A stretch of DNA of 64,000 nucleotides from Escherichia coli (GCF_003991155.1 NZ_CP031293.1); one strand, 5' to 3'. Counted from the first letter of the stretch, positions 6,407 through 31,189 are shown. Program-made: numbers and translations. Notes: generated by a model from the letters alone, not told the origin.

Positions 6407-7624
6407 TTACCTCGTAATATTTAACGCTTTTCGCAAAATAAACGGACAGACGATTAAAAATGCATATTCCGGGCTAAATATCGAACCGGTAAAAAACAGC
6501 GATACCGGAGTAAAAAGATATAATTGCACGCGAAAATTGCGGTTATCACCAAAAGCGTTGATCATCATTTTTATCACTTTCCCCATGTACCACAGCGATA
6601 AAAACACTGCGAACCAGGAAAAATAAATAATCAGCAGATACAAACCATTGTCTATGGTTTTTCCGACATCCGCACCGTTAAATATTCCGAATGATGCGAC
6701 ATATTCATAAAGTGAGCCAAATCTGACTACACCGTCAATATGGGTCAAAGAATAACCGACCATCACCAGCGGACCGACAATACGATAATACGATGACGAA
6801 CCTTCCGTGCCTAAATCACCCAGACGGGTGGAAATATAAGGAAACGCGATTACCACACCAACCAGGAATACAGCCAGAGAAACCAATGCTAACGGTAACT
6901 TTTTCTTAATCGCCTCTTTATTCAGATATTGAAATGCCCACTCCAGCAAATAAAAAAGGATAAAGGTCATAACCCCTGAAAACGATCCGGATAATATTAT
7001 CCCTGCGAGAATCATAGCATCGGTTTTAGGCGTTTTGATACCAAACTGTTTGATGCTGAGCCAAATTGAGATTAATGCCAGAGCGAAAAATGCCGGTTCG
7101 AAATAAAGTGCTGTCGTGCGCTTGCCGCCGAATTTAATGAAATTCAGCACATAGCTGTTGCTGTAAATCAGATATTTCGAAATCGACTCCATAATACTGC
7201 TACCGCCGGTGAGGATAATTTGCGCCATCTCCACCGCCGCCAGCGCCACCACCAGCCCGACCACCAGATAAAAGAAACGTAATATCTTGCGATGGTTGTG
7301 TGGCGAAATTGTTTTAAAACGAATACTCCACACCATGCCAATAATGATCACAATATAGACAAACAGCATGGTTGAAGTGACGTATTTACTGGCATCCAAC
7401 GACTGACCAAACAGGTAGTTAAACGCCGTGAGTCCCGCACCAACCCCTAAGGCAATCATCAATTTTTTAACGTTGATGCGCTCTAAAAACAGCAGTAACA
7501 AGACGGGTAAAAAAGTGACGATGGTAATGGGGAAACTTTCGCCAAGCTGGGCGATTTTGACGTTAACCAGCAGGTAAATCAGCGGCAGCAGTAGGTAGCT
7601 ACAGATTCTGATAGAAGTTGACAT
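6407..7624 (-). CDS. wcaD: colanic acid polymerase (multi-TM)
   Basis: ORF-track entry is N-extended; start trimmed to [15 protein letters not shown]...; highly hydrophobic polytopic protein. Confidence 0.85.
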
Positions 7625-8816
7625 ACTCCTCCAGCATCTGTTGTCCACTGTAGGCGGCGCGGCTGCGTTGGCTAAACCCAGCCAGCGTGGTACCAAATAT
7701 CGCCTGCGCGATTTCCGGTTTGCTTAACTGCACCAGTTGCAGCACGTCTTCTTCGCTGACGGTTTTACCGCCGGATTTTTGCAGAACTTCCCGCGCCGCG
7801 TCGCTATGGGTGGCAATCACCGGCACGCCAATCGATAGCGCCTCACACAAAATCAGCGGGTAGTTATCGACGCGAGAACTGAATACCAGCGCATCCATCT
7901 GATTGAGCGCGCTCATCAACTTGCGCTTGTCAGTTTCAAAGCCGTGATTAACCACGTTGCCAGCGGTGAACGGCGAGAACTTACCAAAGGTATGCAGTTC
8001 AATTTTGTCGCCCAGCGCCATCATCTCACGTACCAGTTGCTGGTTAGTTTTGCCGTCGTAACGCAGATCATGCGCCACCACCGCGATTTTCGGCTTGTCC
8101 TGGGTTTCGCGCACCGGAGGCAAGTCCGCCAGAATCGCTTCGGTTGCCATATCAATACCGTTATTGATAATCCGGCAACGCCCTGGACCGTACAGACTAT
8201 TGAAAGCATCAGCCACATGCTGGCTGGGGGAAATAAACTGACAGCCCAGTGCCAGCATCTCGCGGAATAACTGGCGTTTACCCGCCACCAGCTGGTGCGC
8301 GCGATCAATCTTCACCGGTGGATAGTTATTTAAGGTCGGGCATTTCTGGCAGCCCGTTTTCCAGCCTTCGCAACCGTCGGTAAAGGCGCAGCGTCCGGTA
8401 ACGCTCCAGTGATCGTGTAACGTCCAGACCAGAGTGATATCCGGTTTATGGTTTTTCACTTTTTCGCAAAAGCGCACCACGCTCTTAAGATTCAACCAGT
8501 AGCTGTGCAGCACATGAAAATGCAGGACCACCGGACCCGGTGTGCGAGTAATGGTGCGATATAACTCATTGAAATTGCCGAACAGATCGCGATTAAACAG
8601 ACGAAACAACGCAATGTTCGCCATCGCGGTCATCCGCGGCGTATGTTTGATGACCTGCGGATAGTTTTGATGACTGACGCTCTCTTTGCCGCCTTTGCCG
8701 TAGCCGTAGACAAAATGTGACGCCAGCCCCTGTTGCAGCGCGCGCTGGTGGAGATCTAACGCCACACCTGCTGCCCCGCCTTCCGCCAGTCGCACATTGA
8801 ATTGCAGAATATTCAT
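7599..8816 (-). CDS. wcaC: colanic acid biosynthesis glycosyltransferase
   Basis: 405-aa ORF MNILQFNVRLAEGGAAGVALDLHQRA..., GT-B family. Confidence 0.9.
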   Translation of the reverse strand: MNILQFNVRLAEGGAAGVALDLHQRALQQGLASHFVYGYGKGGKESVSHQNYPQVIKHTPRMTAMANIALFRLFNRDLFGNFNELYRTITRTPGPVVLHFHVLHSYWLNLKSVVRFCEKVKNHKPDITLVWTLHDHWSVTGRCAFTDGCEGWKTGCQKCPTLNNYPPVKIDRAHQLVAGKRQLFREMLALGCQFISPSQHVADAFNSLYGPGRCRIINNGIDMATEAILADLPPVRETQDKPKIAVVAHDLRYDGKTNQQLVREMMALGDKIELHTFGKFSPFTAGNVVNHGFETDKRKLMSALNQMDALVFSSRVDNYPLILCEALSIGVPVIATHSDAAREVLQKSGGKTVSEEDVLQLVQLSKPEIAQAIFGTTLAGFSQRSRAAYSGQQMLEEYVNFYQNL

Positions 8817-9301
8817 TTAATTACCTTCACTCGCGCTTTTTCTCCCACCACCAGCGCGTTGTCCGGGACAGAGTCGAGCACCACGCTGCCCGCGCCCACG
8901 GTGACGTTGTTACCAAGCGTGATATCACCAAGAATAATGACGTTGGCACCGAGTTCGACGCCGTTGCCAATGTGTGGACATGCCATGTTATCGGCACCAC
9001 GATTGCCGATAGTGACGCCGTGACGAATGGTGAAATCATCCCCCGCGACCACGTTTTTATTGATCACCACGGCGTAACCGTGATGGATAGTGAAACGGCG
9101 GCCAATGGTCGCGGCGGCCTGGATTTCATAACCGAAAAAGCATTCGGTGATAATGCGATACAGCACCAGCAGCGGGGCCGCCCACAGATTGTTGAGGACG
9201 TTCTTTTTGCGCCACACCGAACAAAAATGAGCGACGCGATAGGCAAGAACCATGCAGCACGGACGTAAACTCCAGCTGTTGGCGCGCAGATCTTCCAGCA
9301 T
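8813..9301 (-). CDS. wcaB: colanic acid biosynthesis acetyltransferase
   Basis: 162-aa ORF with hexapeptide-repeat acetyltransferase pattern (serine acetyltransferase-like); 4-nt overlap with wcaC. Confidence 0.88.
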   Translation of the reverse strand: MLEDLRANSWSLRPCCMVLAYRVAHFCSVWRKKNVLNNLWAAPLLVLYRIITECFFGYEIQAAATIGRRFTIHHGYAVVINKNVVAGDDFTIRHGVTIGNRGADNMACPHIGNGVELGANVIILGDITLGNNVTVGAGSVVLDSVPDNALVVGEKARVKVIK

Positions 9302-9303
9302 CT

Positions 9304-10143
9304 TTAGCGCCCCCGAATACCATCAGCCAGACGTTTGCCGTTACGCACCGACAGCAGCGTCAGCAAAGTGCGCCAGGTCATGCGTTTATTGCGGATCTGG
9401 TAGAGGGTAAACAGCTGATATTTTTTGCTGGCGCGGTCGAATTTGTCTTTGTGCTTGCGGTAAAAGTGGAAGTATCCGGAGAATTTTTTCGGTGACGATG
9501 TGATCTGCATTTCACCATGATTGATATGCAGGATCTGCGTCGCCTCTTCCACTTTCCACGGTTCGCCGTACTCCACCACCATCCGCAGGAAGATGTCGTA
9601 ATCCTGTGCCGCTTTCAGTTTGGTATCGAACAAGCACTCTTTGAAACGCCACGCCCAGGTAAAGACCTGATTGCCAATAATATTGCGTTTGTAGAACAGG
9701 CGGCGTGAATACGGCGATTTGGGATACAGCGGCAAGCTTGCCGGTTGGGAATAGACTTCGCCCTGGCAAACGTAGTCGTTAGCGTACAAAAAGGCGTGAG
9801 TGACCAGTTGCTGTTTATGGGCGAGGAAGACGCTCAGGCGGTTGGGTGTCCATTCATCATCATCATCGATCCCGGTGATGTATTCCCCTTGCGCCAGCAT
9901 AATCGCCTGGTTACGTACCGCGCACGCCCCGCTGTTAATGTCGTTGTGAATGTAGGTAATACGCGGATCGTTGAGGGCGGTGACGTATTGTTGTAGTTGT
10001 TCCCAGGAGGTGGAGCAATCATCCACGATAATCATCTCCCAGTTGTTGTAGTCCTGGCGCAGGACCGATTTTATCGCCCGAATAGCCAGTTGTTGGCGGT
10101 TCCAGGTCGGCATATAGATTGAAATCAGCGGATTGTCTTTCAT
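9304..10143 (-). CDS. wcaA: colanic acid biosynthesis glycosyltransferase (GT2)
   Basis: 279-aa ORF, MKDNPLISIYMPTWNRQQLAIRAIKSVLRQ... GT2 N-terminus. Confidence 0.9.
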   Translation of the reverse strand: MKDNPLISIYMPTWNRQQLAIRAIKSVLRQDYNNWEMIIVDDCSTSWEQLQQYVTALNDPRITYIHNDINSGACAVRNQAIMLAQGEYITGIDDDDEWTPNRLSVFLAHKQQLVTHAFLYANDYVCQGEVYSQPASLPLYPKSPYSRRLFYKRNIIGNQVFTWAWRFKECLFDTKLKAAQDYDIFLRMVVEYGEPWKVEEATQILHINHGEMQITSSPKKFSGYFHFYRKHKDKFDRASKKYQLFTLYQIRNKRMTWRTLLTLLSVRNGKRLADGIRGR

Positions 10144-16305: not shown

Positions 16306-16644
16306 ATGAGAAAAAAGCTGGCTTTTCTTGATACCAGTCTTGACGATTTACGCGCATTTCCAGAATCGTCTCGACAGGAAATTGGCTATCAACTCGACAG
16401 GATCCAACAAGGGTTAAACCCATACGACTGGAAACCTTTTTCAACTATCGGCCCTGGTGTGCGAGAGATTCGTACTCGCGATGCTGATGGGATCTATCGC
16501 GTCATGTATATCGCAAAATTTGAAGAAGCGGTTTACGTATTGCATTGTTTTCAAAAGAAAACACAGACTACCAGTCAATCGGATGTTGATTTAGCCAAAC
16601 GACGCTATAAAGAACTTGTTCAGGAGCGGAAAAATGAAAATTGA
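16306..16644 (+). CDS. HigB-like toxin (Gp49-like, RelE/ParE superfamily)
   Basis: 112-aa ORF; C-terminal pattern YVLHCFQKKTQTTSQSDVDLAKRRYKEL typical of Gp49-like toxins; toxin-first order, 11-nt overlap with downstream HTH gene. Confidence 0.65.
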   Translation: MRKKLAFLDTSLDDLRAFPESSRQEIGYQLDRIQQGLNPYDWKPFSTIGPGVREIRTRDADGIYRVMYIAKFEEAVYVLHCFQKKTQTTSQSDVDLAKRRYKELVQERKNEN

Positions 16645-16924
16645 AACCTTTGATAGTGTGTGGGATGCGGTGAGTGACACCCCTGAACAAGCGGAAAATA
16701 TGCGGATCCGTGCCGAACTTGTAACGATCATTAATAACTGGATTGAACAACAAGGGTTTAGCCAGGCTCAGGCAGCGTCTGCTTTAGGGGTCACTCAACC
16801 TCGCATATCTGAACTTGCCAGAGGTAAGATCCAGATCTTTAGTATCGATAAATTGATCACCATGATGGCTCATGCAGGATTGCATATTCAACGTATTGAA
16901 ATTCAATATCCACATGCTGCTTAG
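16634..16924 (+). CDS. HigA-like antitoxin (XRE-family HTH)
   Basis: Start at ATG 16634 preceded by aggagcgg SD; HTH segment QAQAASALGVTQPRISELARGK. Confidence 0.65.
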   Translation: MKIETFDSVWDAVSDTPEQAENMRIRAELVTIINNWIEQQGFSQAQAASALGVTQPRISELARGKIQIFSIDKLITMMAHAGLHIQRIEIQYPHAA

Positions 16925-16935
16925 TGCTATAAACA

Positions 16936-16965
16936 CAGATGGCGACAAATTGACGCCGCCATCTG
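16936..16965. terminator. bidirectional hairpin between convergent higA-like gene and asmA
   Basis: Inverted repeat cagatggcg ... cgccatctg read directly. Confidence 0.45.
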
Positions 16966-16976
16966 CATAACTTGTC

Positions 16977-18830
16977 TTACATCTTCTCCAGCAACTTCTT
17001 CACATCTTTGCCATTGCGGGAATCTTTATTCCGCTCGGCCCAGTCATTCAGGCGACGTTTCGCTTCATCCTGTAGATGTTTGCGCAGTAACTGATCCACT
17101 TGCAGGCTGTAATTGAGTTGCTGCCAGTTGCCATAAACCCGCAGCGGTACTGGCGTTTCTTTGAGGAAATCAATCAGTTTGCTTTCTCCGTTCCAGCCAC
17201 CAATCACACGAATGTCAAACTGGGTGTCGCAGGTTTGATCTGCCAGATTCAACATGCCTTCCCCTGTCAGCGCCAGCACTGGCGATTGACCTTGCATGTC
17301 GTTTAACGTCACGACGCCATCCTTCAACGTCAAATCGGTGGTAAAGCGGTCAAGACGCGTTACGTTATCGAAGTTTTCAGCGGCCTTCACATCACCACCA
17401 TTACGTTCTACCGCTTGCTGAATCATCTGCTGGAAGTTCATCCCTTCCATGCGCGTGTCGGTCATTTCGACATGTGCCTGTCCTTGCCAGTTATGGCGGA
17501 ATGCGTCGGCATCTATGTCAGCACCGGAGAAATCACCAGCCAGTGACATCTTTCCGGTCAACGAAATCGGATAGTTAAACGCCTTCAGAATGGTACCAAT
17601 CTCAACGTTTTCCAGCCGTGGCTGGAAGTTTATCCGCGGATTTATTGATGTCGCGTCCAGCGTGCCCGGCAGCGAAACCTGTCCACCGTTAAGCTTGCCC
17701 TGCAGTTGAGTAATTTCCAGCAAACCCGACTTGTTGGTCATTTGCGTGGCAACGTCTGTAAAATTCATTCCGCGCCAGCGCACGTTACTGGCCTGCAACA
17801 AAATATCAGCCGTAAAGCCATGCAATCCCTGATAGGCCGGTTCATCAATACGCGAAGAAATGACCGGGCGCGGCAACGTGGATTGGCTCTGCCCTTGCTG
17901 CGCGGCACCGTTTTCACCGTTCGCTGTTTCTTTAAGCGGGATGAGGTTGTCAAGATTCAGTTGCGGGAATTGCAGTCTCAACTGCCATTCCGGTTTCTCT
18001 GTCAACGTGACCTGTGCTTGCCCGCTCAGCGTACTGTCATTGGCGGTCAAACTAATTTGGTTAAATGAAAGGCGTTTATGTGACTCCTGCCACTGGGCCT
18101 GGAAACTCCCCTGCCCCTGAATACCTTGTTTTGGTAAATCGGCACCCTGCAACTGCCAGTTAATTTGTTCAATAGCCGCCGTTAAATCATGCGGATAATC
18201 AGAAGCATCTACCGTACCGTTAAGGGATATCGTGAGGTCGCGCTGATCGCGATTAACCCGCCCGGAGAACTCAAATGAGCCACGATGTTGGGGATCTTGT
18301 TCCATTTGCAGGCGGATATTGCGGATTGTCACCTGCTCGTCATCTTCATGCTGGAACACCAGCACGCTGTCCGCCATCTTAAGACTGGATATATCAAACG
18401 ACCATCCGCGATCGTCTGACAGATCCGGCAAGGTATTGTCGCGCGGTGCAACCGGAGCGTCTTCACTGCGCACCGCTTCCGTCTGCGGCGTCAGTTGGAT
18501 CACAGCCCCTTTTAGCATCACCTGCTTAACGCTCAGTTGATGACTCAGTAGTGGTAAAAGCGCCACGTCCAGACGCATGTTGTCGGCGCGAACCAGTGGC
18601 TGGCTCGCGCCCTGGGCGGTGAGAGACATTCGCCCGGAGAGGATACTAAGCTGCGGCCAGACGTGCCAACGCAGTGGCCCGTCGAGCTGCAATTGATAAC
18701 CGCTACGTGCAGCAACTTGCTTGACCATATAGTCGCGGAAATCATTCGGATTCACCAGCAACACTAACGCAGATAACCCGGCCACCAGCACGACCAGGAG
18801 TATCATCAGCGTCGTCAGAAATCGTCTCAT
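16977..18830 (-). CDS. asmA: outer-membrane assembly protein AsmA
   Basis: 617-aa ORF with N-terminal TM anchor (MRRFLTTLMILLVVLVAGLSALVLL). Confidence 0.9.
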   Translation of the reverse strand: MRRFLTTLMILLVVLVAGLSALVLLVNPNDFRDYMVKQVAARSGYQLQLDGPLRWHVWPQLSILSGRMSLTAQGASQPLVRADNMRLDVALLPLLSHQLSVKQVMLKGAVIQLTPQTEAVRSEDAPVAPRDNTLPDLSDDRGWSFDISSLKMADSVLVFQHEDDEQVTIRNIRLQMEQDPQHRGSFEFSGRVNRDQRDLTISLNGTVDASDYPHDLTAAIEQINWQLQGADLPKQGIQGQGSFQAQWQESHKRLSFNQISLTANDSTLSGQAQVTLTEKPEWQLRLQFPQLNLDNLIPLKETANGENGAAQQGQSQSTLPRPVISSRIDEPAYQGLHGFTADILLQASNVRWRGMNFTDVATQMTNKSGLLEITQLQGKLNGGQVSLPGTLDATSINPRINFQPRLENVEIGTILKAFNYPISLTGKMSLAGDFSGADIDADAFRHNWQGQAHVEMTDTRMEGMNFQQMIQQAVERNGGDVKAAENFDNVTRLDRFTTDLTLKDGVVTLNDMQGQSPVLALTGEGMLNLADQTCDTQFDIRVIGGWNGESKLIDFLKETPVPLRVYGNWQQLNYSLQVDQLLRKHLQDEAKRRLNDWAERNKDSRNGKDVKKLLEKM

Positions 18831-26182: not shown

Positions 26183-26194
26183 TTGAAAAATGGC

Positions 26195-28135
26195 TCAGTA
26201 GCGGCTTAAATCAGCCTTCGCCTGAGCCAGTTTTTCTGCCGCCTGACGTAGCTGCTCCATCAACGGCATGGTCCGTGCTGGAGCATGAAGGCGGAATCGC
26301 TGCAACTCTGTCGCACCGACAGTCAACGCCGATTCCAGCCGATGTCGTTTGGCGGTCATTTTCGCCATTACCGCTTGTCTGTCTGCTGGCGTTACCGCTT
26401 CATTCGGCCTGAAAACAAAACGGCGTTCGCAACTCGCTTTCCAGTCGATAACCGCCTGGGTCAGATGATCACCAAAACCTTTTACTTGCTTAACGCTCCG
26501 TCGGGTAACATCTGCGGCGGTTTCAATACCAAAGGACCGTAACGCCGCTTTACGCGCAGGGCCAACGCCGGGAATAGAGGCAACATCAATAAAAAATCCC
26601 TCCAGAAACTTCTGCTTCTGCCGTTCCCTTGCGGTGTCCTGAAGTGCTGCCAGATCGCGCTTTTCTTCTTCCGGTAACCCAAGAATTTCGTCCTTCATTT
26701 TTTCGAGCATCGTCCGTTTGGCGATAAAACCTTCCAGCCCGCCCAACTGTTGGATCTGGCTGACTAAATGGTCATAGTCCATTTTTGCGCGATTAAAAGC
26801 CTCTCTTTGTCGCTGGACTTCTGCTTTGTACGCTTTGCTTGTCAGGCTGCCAATAATCCAGATAGCCGCCAGCACGGGAACCAAAATGATATAACGCGGT
26901 TCTACCTGAAGGCCGCAAAGCAGCAGCGATAACGCTGACAGTGCGATCTCAATCAGAATGATGTATTCACGCCTTAACAGGCCTAAAGGAAGCGGCCTGC
27001 CAGTCGGTTGGAAATGATCGGGTAATGGCAGTTGCAATGCTGGTGGTGCTACTGACGCCATCACCATCGCCCAGACTTTCGCCAGCACAAAATCACCGCT
27101 GGTGGTAATGACCTCTTCGCCGAGATCAATAAAATAGATAACGCCTTGATTATCCAGCGCACACCACGGGCAGTCAGTCAAATGACCGGGGTAAACATGC
27201 ATTGCCGAAACGGTACATTTCTTTAACTGTTGGCGTAGTAAATCAAGTGCCGCAACCCACGCTTTTGCCGTCGGACGCCCGGTTGCCACGCCACTTTCCG
27301 TGAATGCCTGCTGAAACATGGCTTCAACATCACCTGGTAACATCGACAGCGGAATAGATCGTGGCGGCGGTTTTAAACCACGTCGCTGATTATCTGACGC
27401 GTAGGCATAACGGAAATGGGCAATATCCGTCTCCAGCGCATTACCCGCATCAGAGATAAGCGGTACACCGGAATAAGGATGCCGACCACCAAACAAGACG
27501 TGAAAAATCAGCAACGCAAGGCCAAAATTATCGTGATTCGCGGTGCGTTCAAAGCCAACAAATGACGACAAGGTTTGTAGCTCTGGCGGCGTAAAATGCG
27601 ACACGCCAACTTCGCATAAATGCAACGTGCCATTAGCGTTAATCTGAAAGGAGTCGCTATCAATCAACACCACTTTGCTGTCGCGACCTACCATAAAGCT
27701 GTTCTGGTTTACGTCACCCACGACGTGCCCGTGCTCGTGAATCGTAGCAAAAGATGAAGCAATATTGCGCGCAACATAGAGTAGAAAATCCCACGCACAA
27801 TGAGGGTAACTCTGGCGACGATGTGCCGGGCTATAGATCATATGAATCGGTTCTTTACCTGAAACCTTCGGCATCATAAAACCGATAACCTTTCCGCCTC
27901 GTCCACCGTGAAGCGTTGCCTGCGGCCAGGCGACATAATTCAACAATTGCGCGTCAGCTGTCGCAGCCATAAAGGCAAGTTTGTCCTGTTTTAAGGCGGG
28001 TGGCGGCGTGTGATAAATCTTGGCAACGCTATCGGCAAACTCCTCGATATCATAAACCGCACCTTCACCGCCTTTGCCCAGTTCACGGCCTGGCGTAACG
28101 CACTCACCAGTAGCAGTATATAAAGTGGGTTTCAT
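26195..28135 (-). CDS. yegI: eukaryotic-like Ser/Thr protein kinase with two hydrophobic helices and C-terminal HhH-like motif
   Basis: Gly-rich loop GKGGEGAVY, VAKIY lysine, HVVGDVNQNSF catalytic-loop-like, IDSDSF DFG-like; ATG at 28135 forms ATGA overlap with yegK stop (ORF track extends to GTG 28144). Confidence 0.85.
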   Translation of the reverse strand: MKPTLYTATGECVTPGRELGKGGEGAVYDIEEFADSVAKIYHTPPPALKQDKLAFMAATADAQLLNYVAWPQATLHGGRGGKVIGFMMPKVSGKEPIHMIYSPAHRRQSYPHCAWDFLLYVARNIASSFATIHEHGHVVGDVNQNSFMVGRDSKVVLIDSDSFQINANGTLHLCEVGVSHFTPPELQTLSSFVGFERTANHDNFGLALLIFHVLFGGRHPYSGVPLISDAGNALETDIAHFRYAYASDNQRRGLKPPPRSIPLSMLPGDVEAMFQQAFTESGVATGRPTAKAWVAALDLLRQQLKKCTVSAMHVYPGHLTDCPWCALDNQGVIYFIDLGEEVITTSGDFVLAKVWAMVMASVAPPALQLPLPDHFQPTGRPLPLGLLRREYIILIEIALSALSLLLCGLQVEPRYIILVPVLAAIWIIGSLTSKAYKAEVQRQREAFNRAKMDYDHLVSQIQQLGGLEGFIAKRTMLEKMKDEILGLPEEEKRDLAALQDTARERQKQKFLEGFFIDVASIPGVGPARKAALRSFGIETAADVTRRSVKQVKGFGDHLTQAVIDWKASCERRFVFRPNEAVTPADRQAVMAKMTAKRHRLESALTVGATELQRFRLHAPARTMPLMEQLRQAAEKLAQAKADLSRY

Positions 28136-28893
28136 GGTAACCACATAGCCAGTGCCAACGTTTTATCATCATCCGTACGCTCGTTTACCGCCGGGCTGGA
28201 CAAAAACTGCTTTAACAATTCAGGTAATAAATCGAGTTGTTCCTGCGTTGCTGACGCCAGTCCATTGAAAAACGGGGTAAAGAAAGGCACATGCGGAGAA
28301 TTATCCAGCATATTTAACGCCAGTCTCTGAATACCATCCGTAAATGCTGCAACTCTATGCGCACGCTCAGTGCTGGTGAAAGTTTCCAGTCTGGAAACGG
28401 CATCTTCATCGGTAATGAAATGCGTCATGTTGGCATATTCACCCACCATCGGCGTGAGAGGCAATTGCAGACCGTGACCCAAATCTACCACCACGCCGCC
28501 ATCGCCAATCTGCATAATCAAGGTGCCGTCAGGCGATGAAATCAGTCCCAGAAATGTGCAGGCAAAATCGCGAACCGCTAATTCTTTGGCTTCCGCCTCG
28601 GCAAAAAGTCGCTGACGAACGGTCAGCACAATATCCGTTGCGAGGACATCATTAAGCCCCAATTCCCCGCCCTGCACTTTTTGCATCATATAAGCCATCG
28701 CTTCATTGACGGCAAGCGTCGCACCTTCGCCACCCTGCGAAACGCTGCCTGCGCCATCAGCGACAAATACCGTCAATAATGGCTGCTGGTCTTCTAGCCA
28801 GGCAACCTGCATCTGGCAGGCATCCTGGCAAGGCAAGTCCGCGCTGATGTGCGACGTTCCAACGGTTGATGCATAGACCAGACGCCAGCTCAC
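28132..28893 (-). CDS. pphC: PP2C-family Ser/Thr protein phosphatase
   Basis: 253-aa ORF; PP2C metal-binding signature ([16 protein letters not shown]); ATGA overlap with yegL stop at 28890-28893. Confidence 0.85.
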
Positions 28894-29549
28894 ACTGACG
28901 TCCAGCCTTTTGGCGCTTCCAGCACAACTTCCGTTCCCGGCGTGGAGCGGGAAACCGAACGCAGCGAACTGGATAACCAGCTAAACAGTTCACGGAATTG
29001 TAATCCCTGCAGTGGCAAAGGCTGACGAACGCTGATTTGTGCCAAAGTCTTCATATCCGCCCCCTGAACACCGATGGAAAAGAAGGCAAACTTCTTATCT
29101 TCTTCCCCCTGAAACACTTTGTTGGCGGCAGCCTGCCACTCATCGGTTGGAGCGCCATCAGTGATCAGGAAAATCCACGGGCGATAATACGAAATACCAT
29201 TGGCACGATACTCACGTTTGCGCTCCTCAACCATATTCAGGGCTTTGGTAATGGCAGCGCCCATTGGTGTATCGCCCTGGGCAAACAGGATGGGCGGGAA
29301 AAAATTAGCGGCGCTGGTAAAGGGTTGTTCCACATGCACCGGGCCGAACGTCACAATACCGAGTTCCACTCTTTTTAAGGCCAGCGAATCGGCAAGCAGC
29401 TCATCGCGAAAGGTAACCAATCCGGCGTTAAGTTCATTAATGGGTCTACCGTTCATAGAACCAGAAACATCCAGCAGCAAAATGCAGGGGCAACGTGGTT
29501 CCGGGTTACTGGCAAAATCGCTGGTGGCAAACGTGATTTGTTCGCTCAT
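28890..29549 (-). CDS. yegL: von Willebrand factor A domain protein (TerY-like)
   Basis: 219-aa ORF; MIDAS motif DVSGSM plus downstream ITDG. Confidence 0.85.
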
Positions 29550-29695
29550 AAGAAATCCTTTCTTAGAGAATTATTGAGGTCCGGTATCATACCGATTGCA
29601 ATAATGAAATAAGAGCAAACGAAGAAACTTTCAGAATTAGGCCCGGCGGCGCAGAAAATTTTGCTATTCGCCTCGCAAGAACGGAGAGCCGTCGA

Positions 29696-29724
29696 TTGAC
29701 ACTAAGGGCGGAGTGACATAATTT
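29696..29724 (+). promoter_or_regulatory. sigma70-like promoter of first Sib RNA
   Basis: ttgaca (29696-29701), 17-nt spacer, taattt (29719-29724); equivalent ttgaca-N17-tacttt recurs in each later repeat (e.g. 30031-30059). Confidence 0.5.
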
Positions 29725-29730
29725 CAGGAG

Positions 29731-29877
29731 TGAGGGTTAGGGAGAGGTTTCCCCCTCCCCCTGGTGTTCTTAGTAAGCCTGGAAGCTAATCACTAAGAGT
29801 ATCACCAGTATGATGACGTGCTTCATCATAACCCTTTCCTTATTAAAAGTCCTCTTCTCCGGGAGAGGGTTTCCCGT
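29731..29877 (+). ncRNA. sib: Sib antisense RNA, copy 1 (approximate ends)
   Basis: Antisense to ibs copy 1, between the promoter and a GC hairpin plus T-rich tract (~29855-29880); ends inferred from recalled K-12 sibA geometry. Confidence 0.55.
29770..29829 (-). CDS. ibs: Ibs type I toxin peptide, copy 1 (MMKHVIILVILLVISFQAY)
   Basis: 19-codon minus-strand ORF read by hand; hydrophobic peptide matching the Ibs family; too short for the ORF track. Confidence 0.75.
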   Translation of the reverse strand: MMKHVIILVILLVISFQAY

Positions 29878-30065
29878 TTCAGCGTCCCGCTGAAATCGTC
29901 GGCTTACCTCCTTTCGCCCTGAATGCAGTCTATCGCTAACGCGTGAACAAAATAGTTTCCTCTGTGATTATTGCGTAACGTCTCGCAAAGAATATTTGCT
30001 GGCAGGATCGCAGACTACAAAGCCTGCGGATTGACAATCTGATTGTGAAGGCATACTTTCAGGAG

Positions 30066-30205
30066 TGAGGGTAGAGCGGGGTTTCCCCCGCCCTGGTAGT
30101 CTTAGTAAGCGGGGAAGCTTATGACTAAGAGCACCACGATGATGAGTATCTTCATCATGACCCTTTCCTTATTTAAGGCCCCTTCCTCGGGAGGGGCTTT
30201 CCCGT
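30066..30205 (+). ncRNA. sib: Sib antisense RNA, copy 2 (approximate ends)
   Basis: Promoter ttgaca 30031-30036 / tacttt 30054-30059; terminator hairpin ~30177-30207. Confidence 0.55.
30102..30158 (-). CDS. ibs: Ibs type I toxin peptide, copy 2 (MMKILIIVVLLVISFPAY)
   Basis: 18-codon minus-strand ORF read by hand. Confidence 0.75.
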   Translation of the reverse strand: MMKILIIVVLLVISFPAY

Positions 30206-30393
30206 TTCAGCGTCCCGCTGAAATCGTCGGCCTACCTCCTTTTGCCCTGAATACAGTCTATCGCTAACGCGTGAACAAAATAGTTTCCTCTGTGATTATT
30301 GCGTAACGTCTCGCAAAGAATATTTGCTGGCAGGATCGCAGACTACAAAGCCTGCGGATTGACAATCTGATTGTGAAGGCATACTTTCAGGAG

Positions 30394-30533
30394 TGAGGGT
30401 AGAGCGGGGTTTCCCCCGCCCTGGTAGTCTTAGTAAGCGGGGAAGCTTATGACTAAGAGCACCACGATGATGAGTATCTTCATCATGACCCTTTCCTTAT
30501 TTAAGGCCCCTTCCTCGGGAGGGGCTTTCCCGT
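30394..30533 (+). ncRNA. sib: Sib antisense RNA, copy 3 (approximate ends)
   Basis: Same repeat architecture, 328 bp downstream of copy 2. Confidence 0.55.
30430..30486 (-). CDS. ibs: Ibs type I toxin peptide, copy 3 (MMKILIIVVLLVISFPAY)
   Basis: 18-codon ORF identical to copy 2. Confidence 0.75.
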   Translation of the reverse strand: MMKILIIVVLLVISFPAY

Positions 30534-30721
30534 TTCAGCGTCCCGCTGAAATCGTCGGCCTACCTCCTTTTGCCCTGAATACAGTCTATCGCTAACGCGT
30601 GAACAAAATAGTTTCCCCTGTGATTATTGCGTAACGACTCGCAAAGAATATTTGCTGGCAGGATCGCAGACTACAAAGCCTGCGGATTGACAATCTGATT
30701 GTGAAGGCATACTTTCAGGAG

Positions 30722-30861
30722 TGAGGGTAGAGCGGGGTTTCCCCCGCCCTGGTAGTCTTAGTAAGCCGGGAAGCTTATGACTAAGAGCACCACGATGATG
30801 ATCCACTTCATCATGACCCTTTCCTTATTTAAGGCCCCTTCCTCGGGAGGGGCTTTCCCGT
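30722..30861 (+). ncRNA. sib: Sib antisense RNA, copy 4 (approximate ends)
   Basis: Same repeat architecture. Confidence 0.55.
30758..30814 (-). CDS. ibs: Ibs type I toxin peptide, copy 4 (MMKWIIIVVLLVISFPAY)
   Basis: 18-codon minus-strand ORF read by hand. Confidence 0.75.
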   Translation of the reverse strand: MMKWIIIVVLLVISFPAY

Positions 30862-31049
30862 TTCAGCGTCCCGCTGAAATCATCGGCTTACCTCCTTTCG
30901 CCCTGAATGCAGTCTATCGCTGACTTGCGGATAAAATAGTTTCACATGTGATTATTGCGTGACGTCTCGCAAAGAATATTTGCTGGCAGGATCGCAGACT
31001 GCAAAGCCTGCGGATTGACAATCGGACCGTGAAGGCATACTTTCAGGAG

Positions 31050-31189
31050 TGAGGGTAGAGCGGGGTTTCCCCCGCCCTGGTAGTCTTAGTATGCTGGGTA
31101 GCTAATCACTAAGAGCACCACGATGATGAGTAGCTTCATCATGACCCTTTCCTTATTTAAGGCCCCTTCCTCGGGAGGGGCTTTCCCGT
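31050..31189 (+). ncRNA. sib: Sib antisense RNA, copy 5 (approximate ends)
   Basis: Same repeat architecture. Confidence 0.55.
31086..31142 (-). CDS. ibs: Ibs type I toxin peptide, copy 5 (MMKLLIIVVLLVISYPAY)
   Basis: 18-codon minus-strand ORF read by hand. Confidence 0.75.
   Translation of the reverse strand: MMKLLIIVVLLVISYPAY

What the first reader, a model, noticed from the sequence alone, without database searches (positions are those of the whole stretch)
26195..29549. Translationally coupled vWA / PP2C phosphatase / Ser-Thr kinase triad (TerY-P-like) next to a type I toxin array
Three minus-strand genes (yegL, yegK, yegI) are linked by ATGA stop/start overlaps at 28890-28893 and 28132-28135, implying stoichiometric co-expression. 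This is the architecture of the TerY-P triads defined by comparative genomics; a TerY-P system was, as I recall, reported as antiphage in a 2020 defence-system screen. The E. coli chromosomal triad itself has no assigned physiological role that I know of. It sits immediately beside the five-copy ibs/sib array.
Basis: partly seen in the sequence, partly recalled or inferred. Interest (0 to 1): 0.62.

Follow-up and report, generated by a model that had tools for sequence, protein, structure and literature searches.

The report
E. coli yegL-pphC-yegI phospho-switch operon
This is the already annotated E. coli operon for a metal-binding vWA protein, a PP2C phosphatase and a membrane-anchored Ser/Thr kinase; it has the TerY-P gene layout, its relatives in other bacteria often sit among anti-phage genes, and its own function is still untested.

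Summary
The three minus-strand genes are real and sit at the stated coordinates: yegL 28890-29549, pphC/yegK 28132-28893, yegI 26195-28135. Both junctions overlap by 4 nt. The pphC/yegI overlap is ATGA as claimed; the yegL/pphC overlap is GTGA, with a GTG start.

- **Domains.** Pfam confirms vWA (1.3e-9) and PP2C_2 (3.8e-51). E. coli YegI gets no Pfam Pkinase hit. It is still a Hanks-type kinase by family profile, predicted fold and published biochemistry.
- **YegI architecture.** Kinase, invariant CHCC zinc knuckle, two-helix membrane hairpin, coiled coil, (HhH)2-like domain.
- **TerY-P status.** YegL is TerY-like (E=2e-25 to a ter-plasmid TerY), so the triad meets the architectural definition. 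PADLOC's defence models do not recognise it, and its kinase C-terminus differs from the validated Gao system.
- **Distribution.** The triad is core in E. coli (5416/5426 genomes) and under purifying selection (dN/dS 0.06-0.15). In 36% of genomes yegJ splits it.
- **Context elsewhere.** The same three genes were linked in 12/12 loci outside Escherichia. Four of seven loci with long flanks lie among restriction, Abi, PifA or Wadjet genes.

An antiphage or foreign-DNA-sensing role is plausible but unproven. The operon itself is already known, and PphC and YegI have been characterised biochemically.

The parts
28890..29549 (-). yegL: 219-aa TerY-like vWA protein with a complete MIDAS (D27, S29, S31, T94, D131) and a conserved Ser/Thr-rich C-terminal tail ([18 protein letters not shown])
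   Evidence: ORF. Pfam VWA 1.3e-9 and VWA_2 3.3e-7. BLASTP E=2e-25 to ter-plasmid TerY. MIDAS residues invariant across 8 orthologues and 3 TerY proteins. RefSeq annotates it as yegL.
29556..29560 (-). Shine-Dalgarno-like AAGGA, 6 nt upstream of the yegL ATG
   Evidence: Read directly from the sequence. No sigma-70 consensus promoter was found between yegL and the first sib copy.
28890..28893 (-). GTGA overlap: pphC GTG start and yegL TGA stop
   Evidence: Sequence. The same (G/A)TGA junction occurs in L003, L005, L006, L009 and L012.
28132..28893 (-). pphC (yegK): 253-aa Mn-dependent PP2C-type Ser/Thr phosphatase
   Evidence: Pfam PP2C_2 3.8e-51. D24, D46, D131, D186 and D241-243 are invariant in orthologues. 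Activity, the D46N mutant and dephosphorylation of YegI are shown in bioRxiv 303594.
28132..28135 (-). ATGA overlap: yegI ATG start and pphC TGA stop
   Evidence: Sequence. Also ATGA in the two Klebsiella loci; a 1- to 9-nt gap in the other four genera examined. Interrupted by a 725-bp yegJ segment in 1934/5426 E. coli genomes.
27230..28135 (-). yegI residues 1-302: divergent Hanks-type kinase domain (G22, E24, K39, D141, N143, D159-S-D161-S162, E185)
   Evidence: Invariant residues. The family profile hits 253 PDB kinases, best 3.9e-7. Pfam Pkinase hits 40/52 family members. AF2 pLDDT 91.4, Foldseek top hit PknB with TM 0.71. K39D and D141N mutants are inactive (bioRxiv 819920).
27146..27229 (-). 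yegI residues 303-330: CHCC zinc-knuckle-like motif (C307, H313, C322, C325)
   Evidence: All four residues are invariant in 52 family members. CPWC aligns with CPYC of the ter-plasmid TerY-P kinase. Two short strands plus a helix in the AF2 model. Metal binding is inferred, not shown.
26843..26980 (-). yegI residues about 386-431: two hydrophobic helices forming a membrane hairpin with a 5-residue loop
   Evidence: Sequence YIILIEIALSALSLLLCGL / YIILVPVLAAIWIIGSLT. Helices in the AF2 model. Two-pass topology with both termini cytoplasmic was shown experimentally (bioRxiv 819920).
26603..26842 (-). yegI residues 432-511: long helical, coiled-coil-like linker
   Evidence: AF2 secondary structure H418-465, H467-485, H487-500, H502-511.
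26423..26593 (-). yegI residues 515-571: (HhH)2-like domain, the putative DNA-binding module
   Evidence: Pfam HHH_5 7.6e-4. Conserved GIGP and GFG hairpin glycines. AF2 of the C-terminus has pLDDT 94.7. Foldseek's best hits are all (HhH)2 domains (Hjm, RNAP alpha-CTD, Rad51/Dmc1 N-terminal domain, NusA, LigA, DisA), with TM 0.54-0.64 to the small targets but E>=0.28.
26201..26389 (-). yegI residues 583-645: single long C-terminal helix (coiled-coil candidate)
   Evidence: AF2 H583-645 in the full model and H89-151 in the C-terminal model.

Best explanation
The locus is the E. coli yegL-pphC-yegI operon. It is a three-gene phospho-switch of the TerY-P class.

Shown:
- YegI is an active, Mn-preferring Ser/Thr kinase. 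It sits in the inner membrane on a two-helix hairpin with both ends in the cytoplasm, and it autophosphorylates with second-order kinetics.
- PphC is an Mn-dependent PP2C that removes those phosphates.
- The three genes are translationally coupled and are inherited together across many genera.

Inferred:
- YegI has no periplasmic sensor. It carries a zinc knuckle, coiled coils and an (HhH)2-like domain. I therefore propose that it senses a cytoplasmic cue at the membrane, most likely DNA, such as entering phage or plasmid DNA or damaged DNA.
- Binding would bring kinase molecules together and trigger trans-autophosphorylation and phosphorylation of targets.
- PphC would keep the switch off and reset it.
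- YegL, through its MIDAS metal site, would bind an acidic or phosphorylated segment. One candidate is its own conserved Ser/Thr-rich tail or the kinase activation loop. YegL would then act as adaptor or latch.

The most likely biological role is defence against phages or other foreign DNA, in a copy that became fixed in the Escherichia core genome. My confidence by step is about 0.95 for the identity of the parts, about 0.8 for membership of the TerY-P class by architecture, and about 0.4 for a defence role. The figure given is for the whole statement.
For: - **Parts.** Pfam VWA and PP2C_2. Kinase fold by family profile, Pfam on family members and AF2 plus Foldseek. Catalytic, MIDAS and CHCC residues are invariant.
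- **Biochemistry.** bioRxiv 303594 and 819920.
- **TerY relationship.** YegL to TerY E=2e-25. PphC and YegI to the ter-plasmid PP2C and kinase, E=4e-5 and 6e-6, including the CPxC knuckle.
- **Module integrity.** vWA, PP2C and kinase occur in the same order in 12/12 loci outside Escherichia. The vWA/PP2C overlap is conserved.
- **Selection.** All ORFs are intact and dN/dS is 0.06-0.15 in 9 E. coli strains.
- **Defence context.** PADLOC-confirmed neighbours within 10 kb in 4 of 7 long-flank loci:
  - GmrSD-like 2e-213, plus type I RM by Pfam (L003).
  - PDC-S36/PD-T4-1-like 3.9e-95, a WYL regulator and JetB 3.3e-93 (L005).
  - PifA 1.4e-118 and AbiH, next to Tn7-like genes (L006).
  - Type I REase and an Mrr-like nuclease (L009).
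- **Patchy spread.** The closest homologues outside Escherichia are only about 60% identical. They occur in Klebsiella, Piscinibacter and Chromobacterium and on Pseudomonas, rhizobial and sphingomonad plasmids.
- **Precedent.** TerY-P triads protect against T7-like phages (PMC7699616; PMC10889362).
- **DNA link.** Overproduced YegL and YegI are listed among the DNA-damage-promoting proteins (bioRxiv 354589).
Against: - No phage phenotype exists for this subfamily, and no paper in the searchable library links yegI to phage defence.
- PADLOC models do not recognise any of the three proteins as TerY-P.
- In E. coli the triad is core (5416/5426 genomes), has native GC content and sits between housekeeping genes. 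That is atypical for a defence system.
- Two of seven long-flank contexts (L010, L012) show no defence genes, and L011 is ambiguous. Seven loci are not a statistic.
- Expression was undetectable under laboratory conditions (bioRxiv 303594 and 819920; PMC13232886).
- In 36% of E. coli genomes yegJ separates yegI from pphC.
- The (HhH)2 assignment rests on weak E-values. Such domains can bind proteins rather than DNA.
Confidence: 0.45

Rival explanations
1. It is an endogenous signalling module of Escherichia rather than an immune system. The kinase/phosphatase pair, tuned by YegL, regulates a host process at the membrane-DNA interface, such as the response to DNA damage or alkylation, stationary-phase physiology or envelope stress, by phosphorylating host proteins.
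For: - Present in 99.8% of E. coli genomes at a fixed locus next to alkA and yegD, with native GC content.
- Purifying selection on all three genes.
- Overproduced YegL and YegI are listed as DNA-damage-promoting proteins.
- Weak stationary-phase expression of yegI has been reported.
- The L010 context is purely housekeeping, with LexA nearby.
- Many Ser/Thr phosphosites in E. coli have no assigned kinase.
Against: - Phyletic distribution is patchy. The closest homologues outside Escherichia are only about 60% identical, sit at different loci and occur on plasmids and next to Tn7-like genes.
- Defence-gene neighbourhoods in 4 of 7 informative loci.
- Rajagopalan et al. cite recurrent yegI mutations in long-term evolution experiments, and IS insertions are tolerated.
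- The operon is split by yegJ in a third of strains.
Confidence: 0.3
2. It is a Ter-type metal or tellurite stress sensor. YegL, like TerY in ter operons, senses a metal through its MIDAS site and sets the kinase/phosphatase balance as part of a chemical stress response.
For: - YegL is homologous to the TerY proteins of ter plasmids (E=2e-25) and shares their MIDAS.
- The canonical ter cluster carries its own TerY, PP2C and kinase triad.
- Both enzymes prefer Mn2+.
- TerY-P triads were hypothesised to be a metal-sensing phospho-switch (quoted in PMC11090510).
Against: - No TerD, TerZ, TerC or TerW genes, and none of the ter biosynthetic genes, lie next to the triad in the window or in any of the 12 related loci.
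- The similarity of PphC and YegI to the ter-plasmid enzymes is remote (25% identity).
Confidence: 0.08
3. It is a silenced evolutionary relic with no current function in E. coli.
For: - Transcription was not detected under laboratory conditions.
- H-NS is marked at the yegI-yegJ spacer in K-12.
- IS insertions and a short C-terminal truncation occur in individual strains.
Against: - All three ORFs are intact in 9/9 diverse strains, with dN/dS of 0.06-0.15.
- 5402/5426 genomes retain at least 80% of the locus.
- Catalytic residues are conserved.
- Both enzymes are active in vitro.
Confidence: 0.05

Closest known systems
TerY-P (TerY-phosphorylation) triads as defined by comparative genomics (Anantharaman, Iyer and Aravind 2012, quoted in PMC4978471 and PMC11090510), including the triad inside ter plasmids (L007)
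   Same: - Same three components in one operon: a TerY-like vWA with MIDAS, a PP2C phosphatase and a Ser/Thr kinase followed by a Cys-rich knuckle.
- YegL matches ter-plasmid TerY at E=2e-25. CPWC of YegI aligns with CPYC of the ter-plasmid kinase.
   Different: - No ter genes are nearby.
- PphC is 253 aa against 545 aa for the ter-plasmid PP2C, and YegL lacks the TerY-C domain.
- The kinase carries a membrane hairpin, coiled coils and an (HhH)2-like domain.
- The phosphatase and kinase are only remotely similar to the ter-plasmid ones (E=4e-5 and 6e-6).
The experimentally validated TerY-P antiphage system of Gao et al. 2020, and the Pseudomonas aeruginosa variant of Costa et al. 2024 (PMC10889362)
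   Same: Same three-domain logic. Both protect against T7-like podophages, and the P. aeruginosa variant does so without killing most cells.
   Different: - The Gao kinase is described as fused to a C-terminal OB fold (PMC11090510). YegI has a transmembrane hairpin and HhH instead.
- PADLOC's TerY model scores YegL at only E=0.014, and there is no hit for PphC.
- I could not obtain the Gao or Costa protein sequences for a direct comparison.
- No phage phenotype is known for YegLKI.
[quoted passage not shown]
   Same: A vWA, PP2C and kinase triad in which the kinase is followed by a zinc ribbon. YegI has an invariant CHCC knuckle at the equivalent position.
   Different: There are no CnuH, CnuE or McrBC-type genes next to the triad in the window or in the related loci. 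In YegI the knuckle is followed by a membrane anchor and HhH.
Classical bacterial Hanks kinase / PP2C pairs (PknB-PstP, PrkC-PrpC)
   Same: Adjacent kinase and PP2C genes, with the phosphatase dephosphorylating the autophosphorylated kinase. The kinase fold is closest to PknB.
   Different: - There is no extracellular PASTA or other sensor domain; the periplasmic loop is about 5 residues.
- The catalytic motifs are atypical: VGDxxQxS in place of HRDxxPxN, and DSD in place of DFG.
- A vWA partner is obligatory.
Single-gene kinase defence proteins (PD-T4-6) and kinase domains of Mokosh MkoA and MADS mad6 in PADLOC
   Same: Weak profile similarity over the kinase catalytic core (E about 1e-4 to 1e-8).
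   Different: This is generic kinase-fold similarity only. The architecture and the partner genes differ.

Membership tests
TerY-P triad (architectural definition: TerY + PP2C + Ser/Thr kinase, PMC4978471 and PMC11090510) | TerY-like vWA protein with an intact MIDAS | tested here: met
   Pfam VWA 1.3e-9. BLASTP E=2e-25 to ter-plasmid TerY. D27, S29, S31, T94 and D131 are invariant across YegL orthologues and TerY1-3.
TerY-P triad (architectural definition) | PP2C-type phosphatase encoded next to the vWA gene | tested here: met
   Pfam PP2C_2 3.8e-51. 4-nt overlap with yegL. Activity shown in bioRxiv 303594.
TerY-P triad (architectural definition) | Ser/Thr kinase encoded in the same operon | tested here: met
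   There is no Pfam Pkinase hit for E. coli YegI itself. Pkinase does hit 40/52 family members. The family profile hits 253 PDB kinases. The predicted fold matches PknB. K39D and D141N mutants are inactive.
TerY-P triad (architectural definition) | The three genes are inherited together across taxa | tested here: met
   Same order and similar sizes in 12/12 loci outside Escherichia.
TerY-P triad (architectural definition) | Kinase followed by a zinc ribbon or a nucleic-acid-binding domain | tested here: inconclusive
   C307, H313, C322 and C325 are invariant and align with the ter-plasmid kinase knuckle. The (HhH)2-like domain rests on weak scores. Neither metal binding nor DNA binding has been shown.
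Gao 2020 TerY-P defence system as modelled in PADLOC-DB v2.0.0 | Significant match of the vWA protein to the PADLOC TerY model | tested here: not met
   E=0.014, 13 bits. The same model also misses the canonical ter-plasmid TerY proteins, so it is narrow.
Gao 2020 TerY-P defence system as modelled in PADLOC-DB v2.0.0 | Matches of the phosphatase and the kinase to TerY-P component models | tested here: not met
   PphC has no hit up to E=10. YegI hits only MkoA and PD-T4-6 at 1e-3 to 1e-4. I had no positive control with a true Gao-type protein.
Gao 2020 TerY-P defence system as modelled in PADLOC-DB v2.0.0 | Kinase fused to a C-terminal OB fold (as described in PMC11090510) | tested here: not met
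   After the kinase, YegI has a CHCC knuckle, a transmembrane hairpin, a coiled coil and an (HhH)2-like domain.
Gao 2020 TerY-P defence system as modelled in PADLOC-DB v2.0.0 | Protection against phage when expressed | not testable with these tools
   This needs plaque assays. No report was found.
ter (tellurite resistance) gene cluster | Linkage to TerZ, TerABCDE, TerW and the ter biosynthetic genes | tested here: not met
   The neighbours in the window are yegD, alkA, the ibs/sib array and mdtA. No ter genes occur in the related loci. Compare the ter plasmid L007.
Receptor-type Hanks kinases (PknB/PrkC) | Extracytoplasmic sensor domain (for example PASTA) | tested here: not met
   The two hydrophobic helices are separated by about 5 residues (QVEPR). 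Both termini are cytoplasmic (bioRxiv 819920).

The most novel reading that the evidence does not exclude
The Escherichia core genome carries a normally silent, membrane-anchored immune sensor of a TerY-P subfamily that has not been recognised as such. The subfamily is large: 3,219 clusters at 50% identity match the kinase at E<1e-30. It has a fixed architecture of vWA, PP2C and a kinase with zinc knuckle, membrane hairpin, coiled coil and (HhH)2. PADLOC v2.0.0 does not recognise it. On this reading it detects incoming phage or plasmid DNA at the inner membrane and answers by Ser/Thr phosphorylation. The K-12 lineage, where yegJ is inserted between pphC and yegI, would then have an uncoupled and differently regulated version.
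Probability: 0.35. Interest if true: 0.65.

Novelty: already known. Interest (0 to 1): 0.4.

Why it matters
YegI and PphC are the only Hanks-type kinase / PP2C pair described in E. coli, and their physiological role has been open since 2018. Three observations turn that question into a cheap experiment in the best-understood bacterium. The pair belongs to an obligatory three-gene TerY-P-type module. The kinase carries a membrane anchor and an HhH-like domain. Relatives in other bacteria often sit in defence islands.

If the defence reading is confirmed, it would add a widespread subfamily to the defence catalogues. It would also give an example of an immune module fixed in a core genome. If it is refuted, attention shifts to an endogenous DNA- or membrane-linked phospho-signalling role.

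Tried and rejected
- **PADLOC on the three proteins, up to E=10**. There was no TerY-P call. PADLOC also missed the canonical ter-plasmid TerY and PP2C proteins. The negative therefore shows narrow models rather than non-membership of the broad class.
- **PADLOC on ten YegI relatives with other lengths**, to look for a Gao-type kinase among close relatives. None was found.
- **Original papers.** I tried to read Gao 2020 (PMC7985843) and Anantharaman 2012 (PMC4104200). Neither is held, so the definitions come from papers that quote them.
- **P. aeruginosa variant sequence.** I looked for it in the supplements of PMC10889362. Only primers are given, and I judged an exact-match scan of one genome per species unlikely to find it.
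- **Diversifying selection.** The triad looked unusually divergent: 1296 genomes at 90-95% identity against 39 for an mdtB control. Gene-wide dN/dS is low (0.06-0.15), and the excess is mostly synonymous, with dS of 0.196 for pphC. I rejected diversifying selection at gene level. Site-level tests were not done.
- **Recent foreign origin in E. coli.** GC content is 50-54%, as in the flanks. Rejected.
- **Phage-borne origin.** Only 3 weak partial hits in 50,697 phage records. Rejected.
- **NCBIfam** gave only sub-threshold hits.
- **Single-sequence PDB search** was marginal.
- **Simple scans** found no promoter upstream of yegL and no terminator after yegI.


Full report
**1. Observation**

The window is E. 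coli. The region holds three consecutive minus-strand ORFs at exactly the reported coordinates: 28890-29549 (219 aa), 28132-28893 (253 aa) and 26195-28135 (646 aa from the ATG). RefSeq annotates the same genes in other strains as yegL, pphC and yegI, with the same lengths and 4-nt overlaps.

The yegL/pphC junction (28893-28890) is GTGA. pphC starts at a GTG that is also the last codon of yegL. The GTG start is supported by the conserved N-terminus M(S/T)WRLVYAS in orthologues. The same (G/A)TGA overlap occurs in five loci from at least four other genera. The PP2C/kinase junction is ATGA in the enterobacterial loci and a 1- to 9-nt gap in the others.

Overlaps of this kind are common in operons (general knowledge). 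They argue for co-transcription and translational coupling rather than strict stoichiometry. Five SIB RNA genes at 29696-31157 confirm the adjacent ibs/sib array.

**2. Domain identities**

- **YegL.** It matches Pfam VWA (1.3e-9) and VWA_2 (3.3e-7).
- **PphC.** It matches PP2C_2 (3.8e-51).
- **YegI.** It gives no Pfam kinase hit at all, only HHH_5 (7.6e-4, residues 515-551). NCBIfam and PADLOC give only weak kinase-core hits.

Family-level evidence settles the kinase question.
- An alignment of 52 full-length relatives (A1) has invariant G22, E24, K39, D141, N143, D159, D161, S162, E185 and D202.
- Its profile hits 253 PDB kinases, best 3.9e-7.
- Pfam Pkinase hits 40 of the 52 members individually, best 3.7e-13.
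- An AlphaFold2 model (pLDDT 91.4) has an N-terminal 300 residues that match PknB and about 1,900 other kinase structures.
- They also showed that PphC is an Mn-dependent PP2C (D46N is inactive) that dephosphorylates YegI (bioRxiv 303594).

**3. Architecture of YegI after the kinase domain**

- Four residues, C307, H313, C322 and C325, are invariant in the family. They lie on two short strands and a helix. This is a zinc-knuckle-like motif that aligns with the CPYC knuckle of the ter-plasmid TerY-P kinase.
- Two hydrophobic helices at about 386-431 are separated by five residues and form the membrane hairpin.
- A long helical linker follows.
- Next comes a domain with two glycine-hairpin motifs (GIGP and GFG).
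- The protein ends in a 60-residue helix.

A separate model of residues 495-646 (pLDDT 94.7) retrieves only (HhH)2 domains as best Foldseek hits: Hjm, RNA polymerase alpha-CTD, the Rad51/Dmc1 N-terminal domain, NusA, LigA and DisA. TM-scores to the small targets are 0.54-0.64, but E-values are not significant. Sequence profile hits are also marginal. An (HhH)2-like fold is therefore likely. DNA binding is an inference.

**4. Relationship to TerY**

YegL finds the TerY genes of IncHI-type ter plasmids in more than 2,000 plasmid records. On one such plasmid, the canonical cluster runs terW, TerY, a TerD-family gene annotated only as such (terX by my recollection of ter clusters), TerY, TerY with TerY-C domain, PP2C, kinase.

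| Comparison | Result |
|---|---|
| YegL vs first TerY | 31% identity, E=2e-25 |
| PphC vs ter-plasmid PP2C | E=4e-5 |
| YegI vs ter-plasmid kinase | E=6e-6 |

All five MIDAS residues are shared between YegL and the TerY proteins. The locus therefore meets the architectural definition of a TerY-P triad: TerY, PP2C and Ser/Thr kinase, as quoted in PMC4978471 and PMC11090510.

It does not meet the operational definition used by PADLOC. YegL scores E=0.014 against the TerY model, and PphC and YegI hit nothing specific. That negative is weak, because the same models also miss the canonical ter-plasmid TerY and PP2C proteins.

The validated Gao system is described as having an OB fold at the kinase C-terminus, and the CoCoNuT-linked triads a zinc ribbon (PMC11090510). 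YegI has a knuckle, a membrane hairpin and HhH. It is a different branch of the same kind.

**5. Distribution and evolution**

Within E. coli:
- The triad is present in 5416 of 5426 complete genomes, and 5402 of them have at least 80% of it.
- GC content is the same as in the flanks.
- The window comes from a minor lineage. Only 43 genomes are at least 99% identical, both for the triad and for an mdtB control.
- The triad is more divergent than the control: 1296 against 39 genomes fall in the 90-95% identity band.

I compared nine strains gene by gene.

| Gene(s) | dN/dS | dS |
|---|---|---|
| yegL | 0.060 | 0.150 |
| pphC | 0.142 | 0.196 |
| yegI | 0.149 | 0.112 |
| Five flanking genes | 0.02-0.17 | 0.08-0.12 |

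All ORFs are intact. The genes are under purifying selection and are therefore functional. The excess divergence is mainly synonymous, which suggests old alleles or recombination. pphC is the most divergent protein in the region, consistent with the strain-dependent PphC activity reported in bioRxiv 303594.

In K-12-type strains a 725-bp segment carrying yegJ on the opposite strand separates pphC from yegI. It occurs in 1934 of 5426 genomes (36%) and is itself diverse. The window has the uninterrupted form.

Beyond E. coli:
- Outside Escherichia the closest YegI homologues are only about 60% identical. They occur sporadically in Klebsiella spallanzanii, K. aerogenes, Piscinibacter and Chromobacterium.
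- Homologues at 30-43% identity sit on Pseudomonas megaplasmids, including pQBR103, and on rhizobial and sphingomonad plasmids.
- An exhaustive search finds 3,219 clusters at 50% identity with E<1e-30. Most of the 150 best are the same length, about 646 aa.
- Phage genomes essentially lack the kinase.

**6. Genomic context elsewhere**

In all 12 loci examined outside Escherichia, the kinase is preceded by a vWA gene of 218-224 aa. In 10 of the 12 the PP2C gene between them was called at 244-266 aa; in L010 and L011 it was called shorter, at 212 and 221 aa. This is strong evidence for an obligatory three-gene module.

Seven of these loci have 10-kb flanks with domain annotation.

| Locus | Neighbours within 10 kb |
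|---|---|
| L003 | GmrSD-like type IV enzyme (PADLOC 2e-213), type I RM, SymE, BrnA |
| L005 | PDC-S36/PD-T4-1-like protein (3.9e-95), Schlafen-like helicase, MazG-like, WYL regulator, JetB (3.3e-93) |
| L006 | PifA (1.4e-118), AbiH, next to Tn7-like transposition genes |
| L009 | Type I RM, Mrr-like nuclease |
| L011 | Ambiguous: two secreted SNase genes, a HipA-like gene |
| L010 | No defence genes |
| L012 | No defence genes |

This is suggestive guilt by association, not a statistical test. In E. coli the neighbours are fixed housekeeping genes (alkA and yegD on one side, mdtABC on the other) plus the variable ibs/sib array.

**7. Mechanism**

Shown:
- Kinase and phosphatase activities, and their reciprocity.
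- Membrane topology.
- Second-order autophosphorylation kinetics.
- Translational coupling and co-inheritance (and section 6).

Inferred:
- There is no periplasmic domain. The only candidate sensor modules are cytoplasmic: the zinc knuckle, the coiled coils and the (HhH)2-like domain.
- The kinase therefore probably senses DNA, or a DNA-bound protein, at the membrane.
- It would oligomerise through its coiled coils, autophosphorylate in trans and phosphorylate targets.
- PphC would set the threshold and reset the switch.
- YegL's MIDAS site would bind an acidic or phosphorylated segment. Its own invariant tail [15 protein letters not shown] is a candidate substrate.

A link to DNA is hinted at by the listing of overproduced YegL and YegI among DNA-damage-promoting proteins (bioRxiv 354589). 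Precedent for function comes from TerY-P triads that protect against T7-like phages, largely without cell death in P. aeruginosa (PMC7699616 and PMC10889362).

I put the defence reading at about 0.4, an endogenous signalling role at about 0.3, a Ter-like metal-stress role at under 0.1, and a non-functional relic at about 0.05.

**8. What is known and what is new**

Already published:
- The operon, its annotation and the ATGA overlap.
- The yegJ polymorphism.
- The enzymology of PphC and YegI.
- The TerY-P concept and its antiphage activity.

No paper in the searchable library links yegI, pphC or yegL to phage defence. Recent work still calls the pathway's role unknown and its expression undetectable (PMC13232886). 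In K-12 the yegI-yegJ spacer carries constitutive promoters and an H-NS mark (PMC3946193).

This analysis adds five points:
- The correction of the first overlap to GTGA.
- The family-level proof that YegI is a kinase.
- The full YegI architecture, with an invariant CHCC knuckle.
- The size and strict three-gene linkage of the subfamily, and its absence from PADLOC.
- The defence-island contexts elsewhere, set against core status and purifying selection in E. coli.

**9. Verdict**

The feature is real and already known. The functional reading (antiphage) is a reasonable, testable hypothesis that my evidence strengthens somewhat but does not establish. Interest is moderate.

Noticed in passing
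window 29696-31157: There are five tandem sib/ibs type I toxin-antitoxin repeats (SIB RNA, 139-150 bits, spacing 328-335 bp). Copy number varies between strains: 2 in K-12-type ET12567 and UPEC_U013, 3 in most strains examined, 5 here. The array is absent from all related triad loci outside Escherichia.
   Followed up: partly
window 28132-28135; L002 4948-5672: In K-12-type strains a 725-bp segment carrying yegJ on the opposite strand is inserted exactly at the pphC/yegI junction. It is present in 1934/5426 E. coli genomes and is itself diverse (217 genomes at 90-95% identity), so this is an old presence/absence polymorphism. It gives yegI its own promoter region with an H-NS mark (PMC3946193). 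YegJ was recently reported to bind RNase E (PMC13232886).
   Followed up: partly
window 26183-26194: yegD (+ strand, ends 26182) and yegI (- strand, ends 26195) converge with only 12 bp between their stop codons. The simple scan found no terminator-like hairpin there, so the transcripts probably overlap. Overexpressing yegJ is reported to induce yegD (PMC13232886).
   Followed up: no
window 28132-28893 (pphC): pphC is the most divergent gene of the region among nine E. coli strains: mean aa identity 94.7%, minimum 90.5%, dS 0.196 against 0.08-0.12 for the flanks. This suggests old allelic lineages or recombination, and fits the published difference in PphC activity between K and B strains.
   Followed up: partly
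H1 (NZ_CM168009.1, strain PEC403); L018 6022-7941: The only genome listed as 100% identical to the window over the triad has an IS4-like ISVsa5 insertion inside yegI. Strain OkiPb01691 has a yegI annotated 7 codons shorter at the C-terminus. Loss or alteration of yegI is therefore tolerated in some lineages, in line with the recurrent yegI mutations in long-term evolution experiments cited in bioRxiv 303594.
   Followed up: no
L005 7719-8474; L009 8075-8284; L011 7700-8501: A conserved, very basic 69-70-aa ORF (83-87% identical between loci) lies directly upstream of the vWA gene in three related loci. In two of them a staphylococcal-nuclease-like gene lies between this ORF and the vWA gene; its hydrophobic N-terminus looks like a signal peptide by eye. 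It is not present in E. coli or Klebsiella. It could be an accessory component or just a linked neighbour.
   Followed up: partly
window 28890-28960 (YegL residues about 191-212): The C-terminal tail of YegL ([18 protein letters not shown]) is rich in Ser/Thr. It is nearly invariant in orthologues and partly conserved in ter-plasmid TerY proteins. It is a candidate phosphorylation site for the partner kinase.
   Followed up: no
P0148, P0166, P0170, P0214, P0224: Some close relatives of the YegI kinase domain are much longer (870-1160 aa) or have different C-termini. One (P0166) has a region matching the Lamassu LmuB model at 4.4e-8, which may only reflect coiled-coil content. Sphingomonad plasmid homologues are annotated with a topoisomerase-type C4 zinc finger. 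The kinase module appears to be combined with varied C-terminal domains.
   Followed up: no
L008 (pQBR103) 6582-9944 and 16543-17926: Pseudomonas fluorescens megaplasmid pQBR103 carries a full triad (40% identity to YegI). Its neighbours include a Y-family polymerase, RNase HII, HU and a second HhH-domain protein.
   Followed up: no
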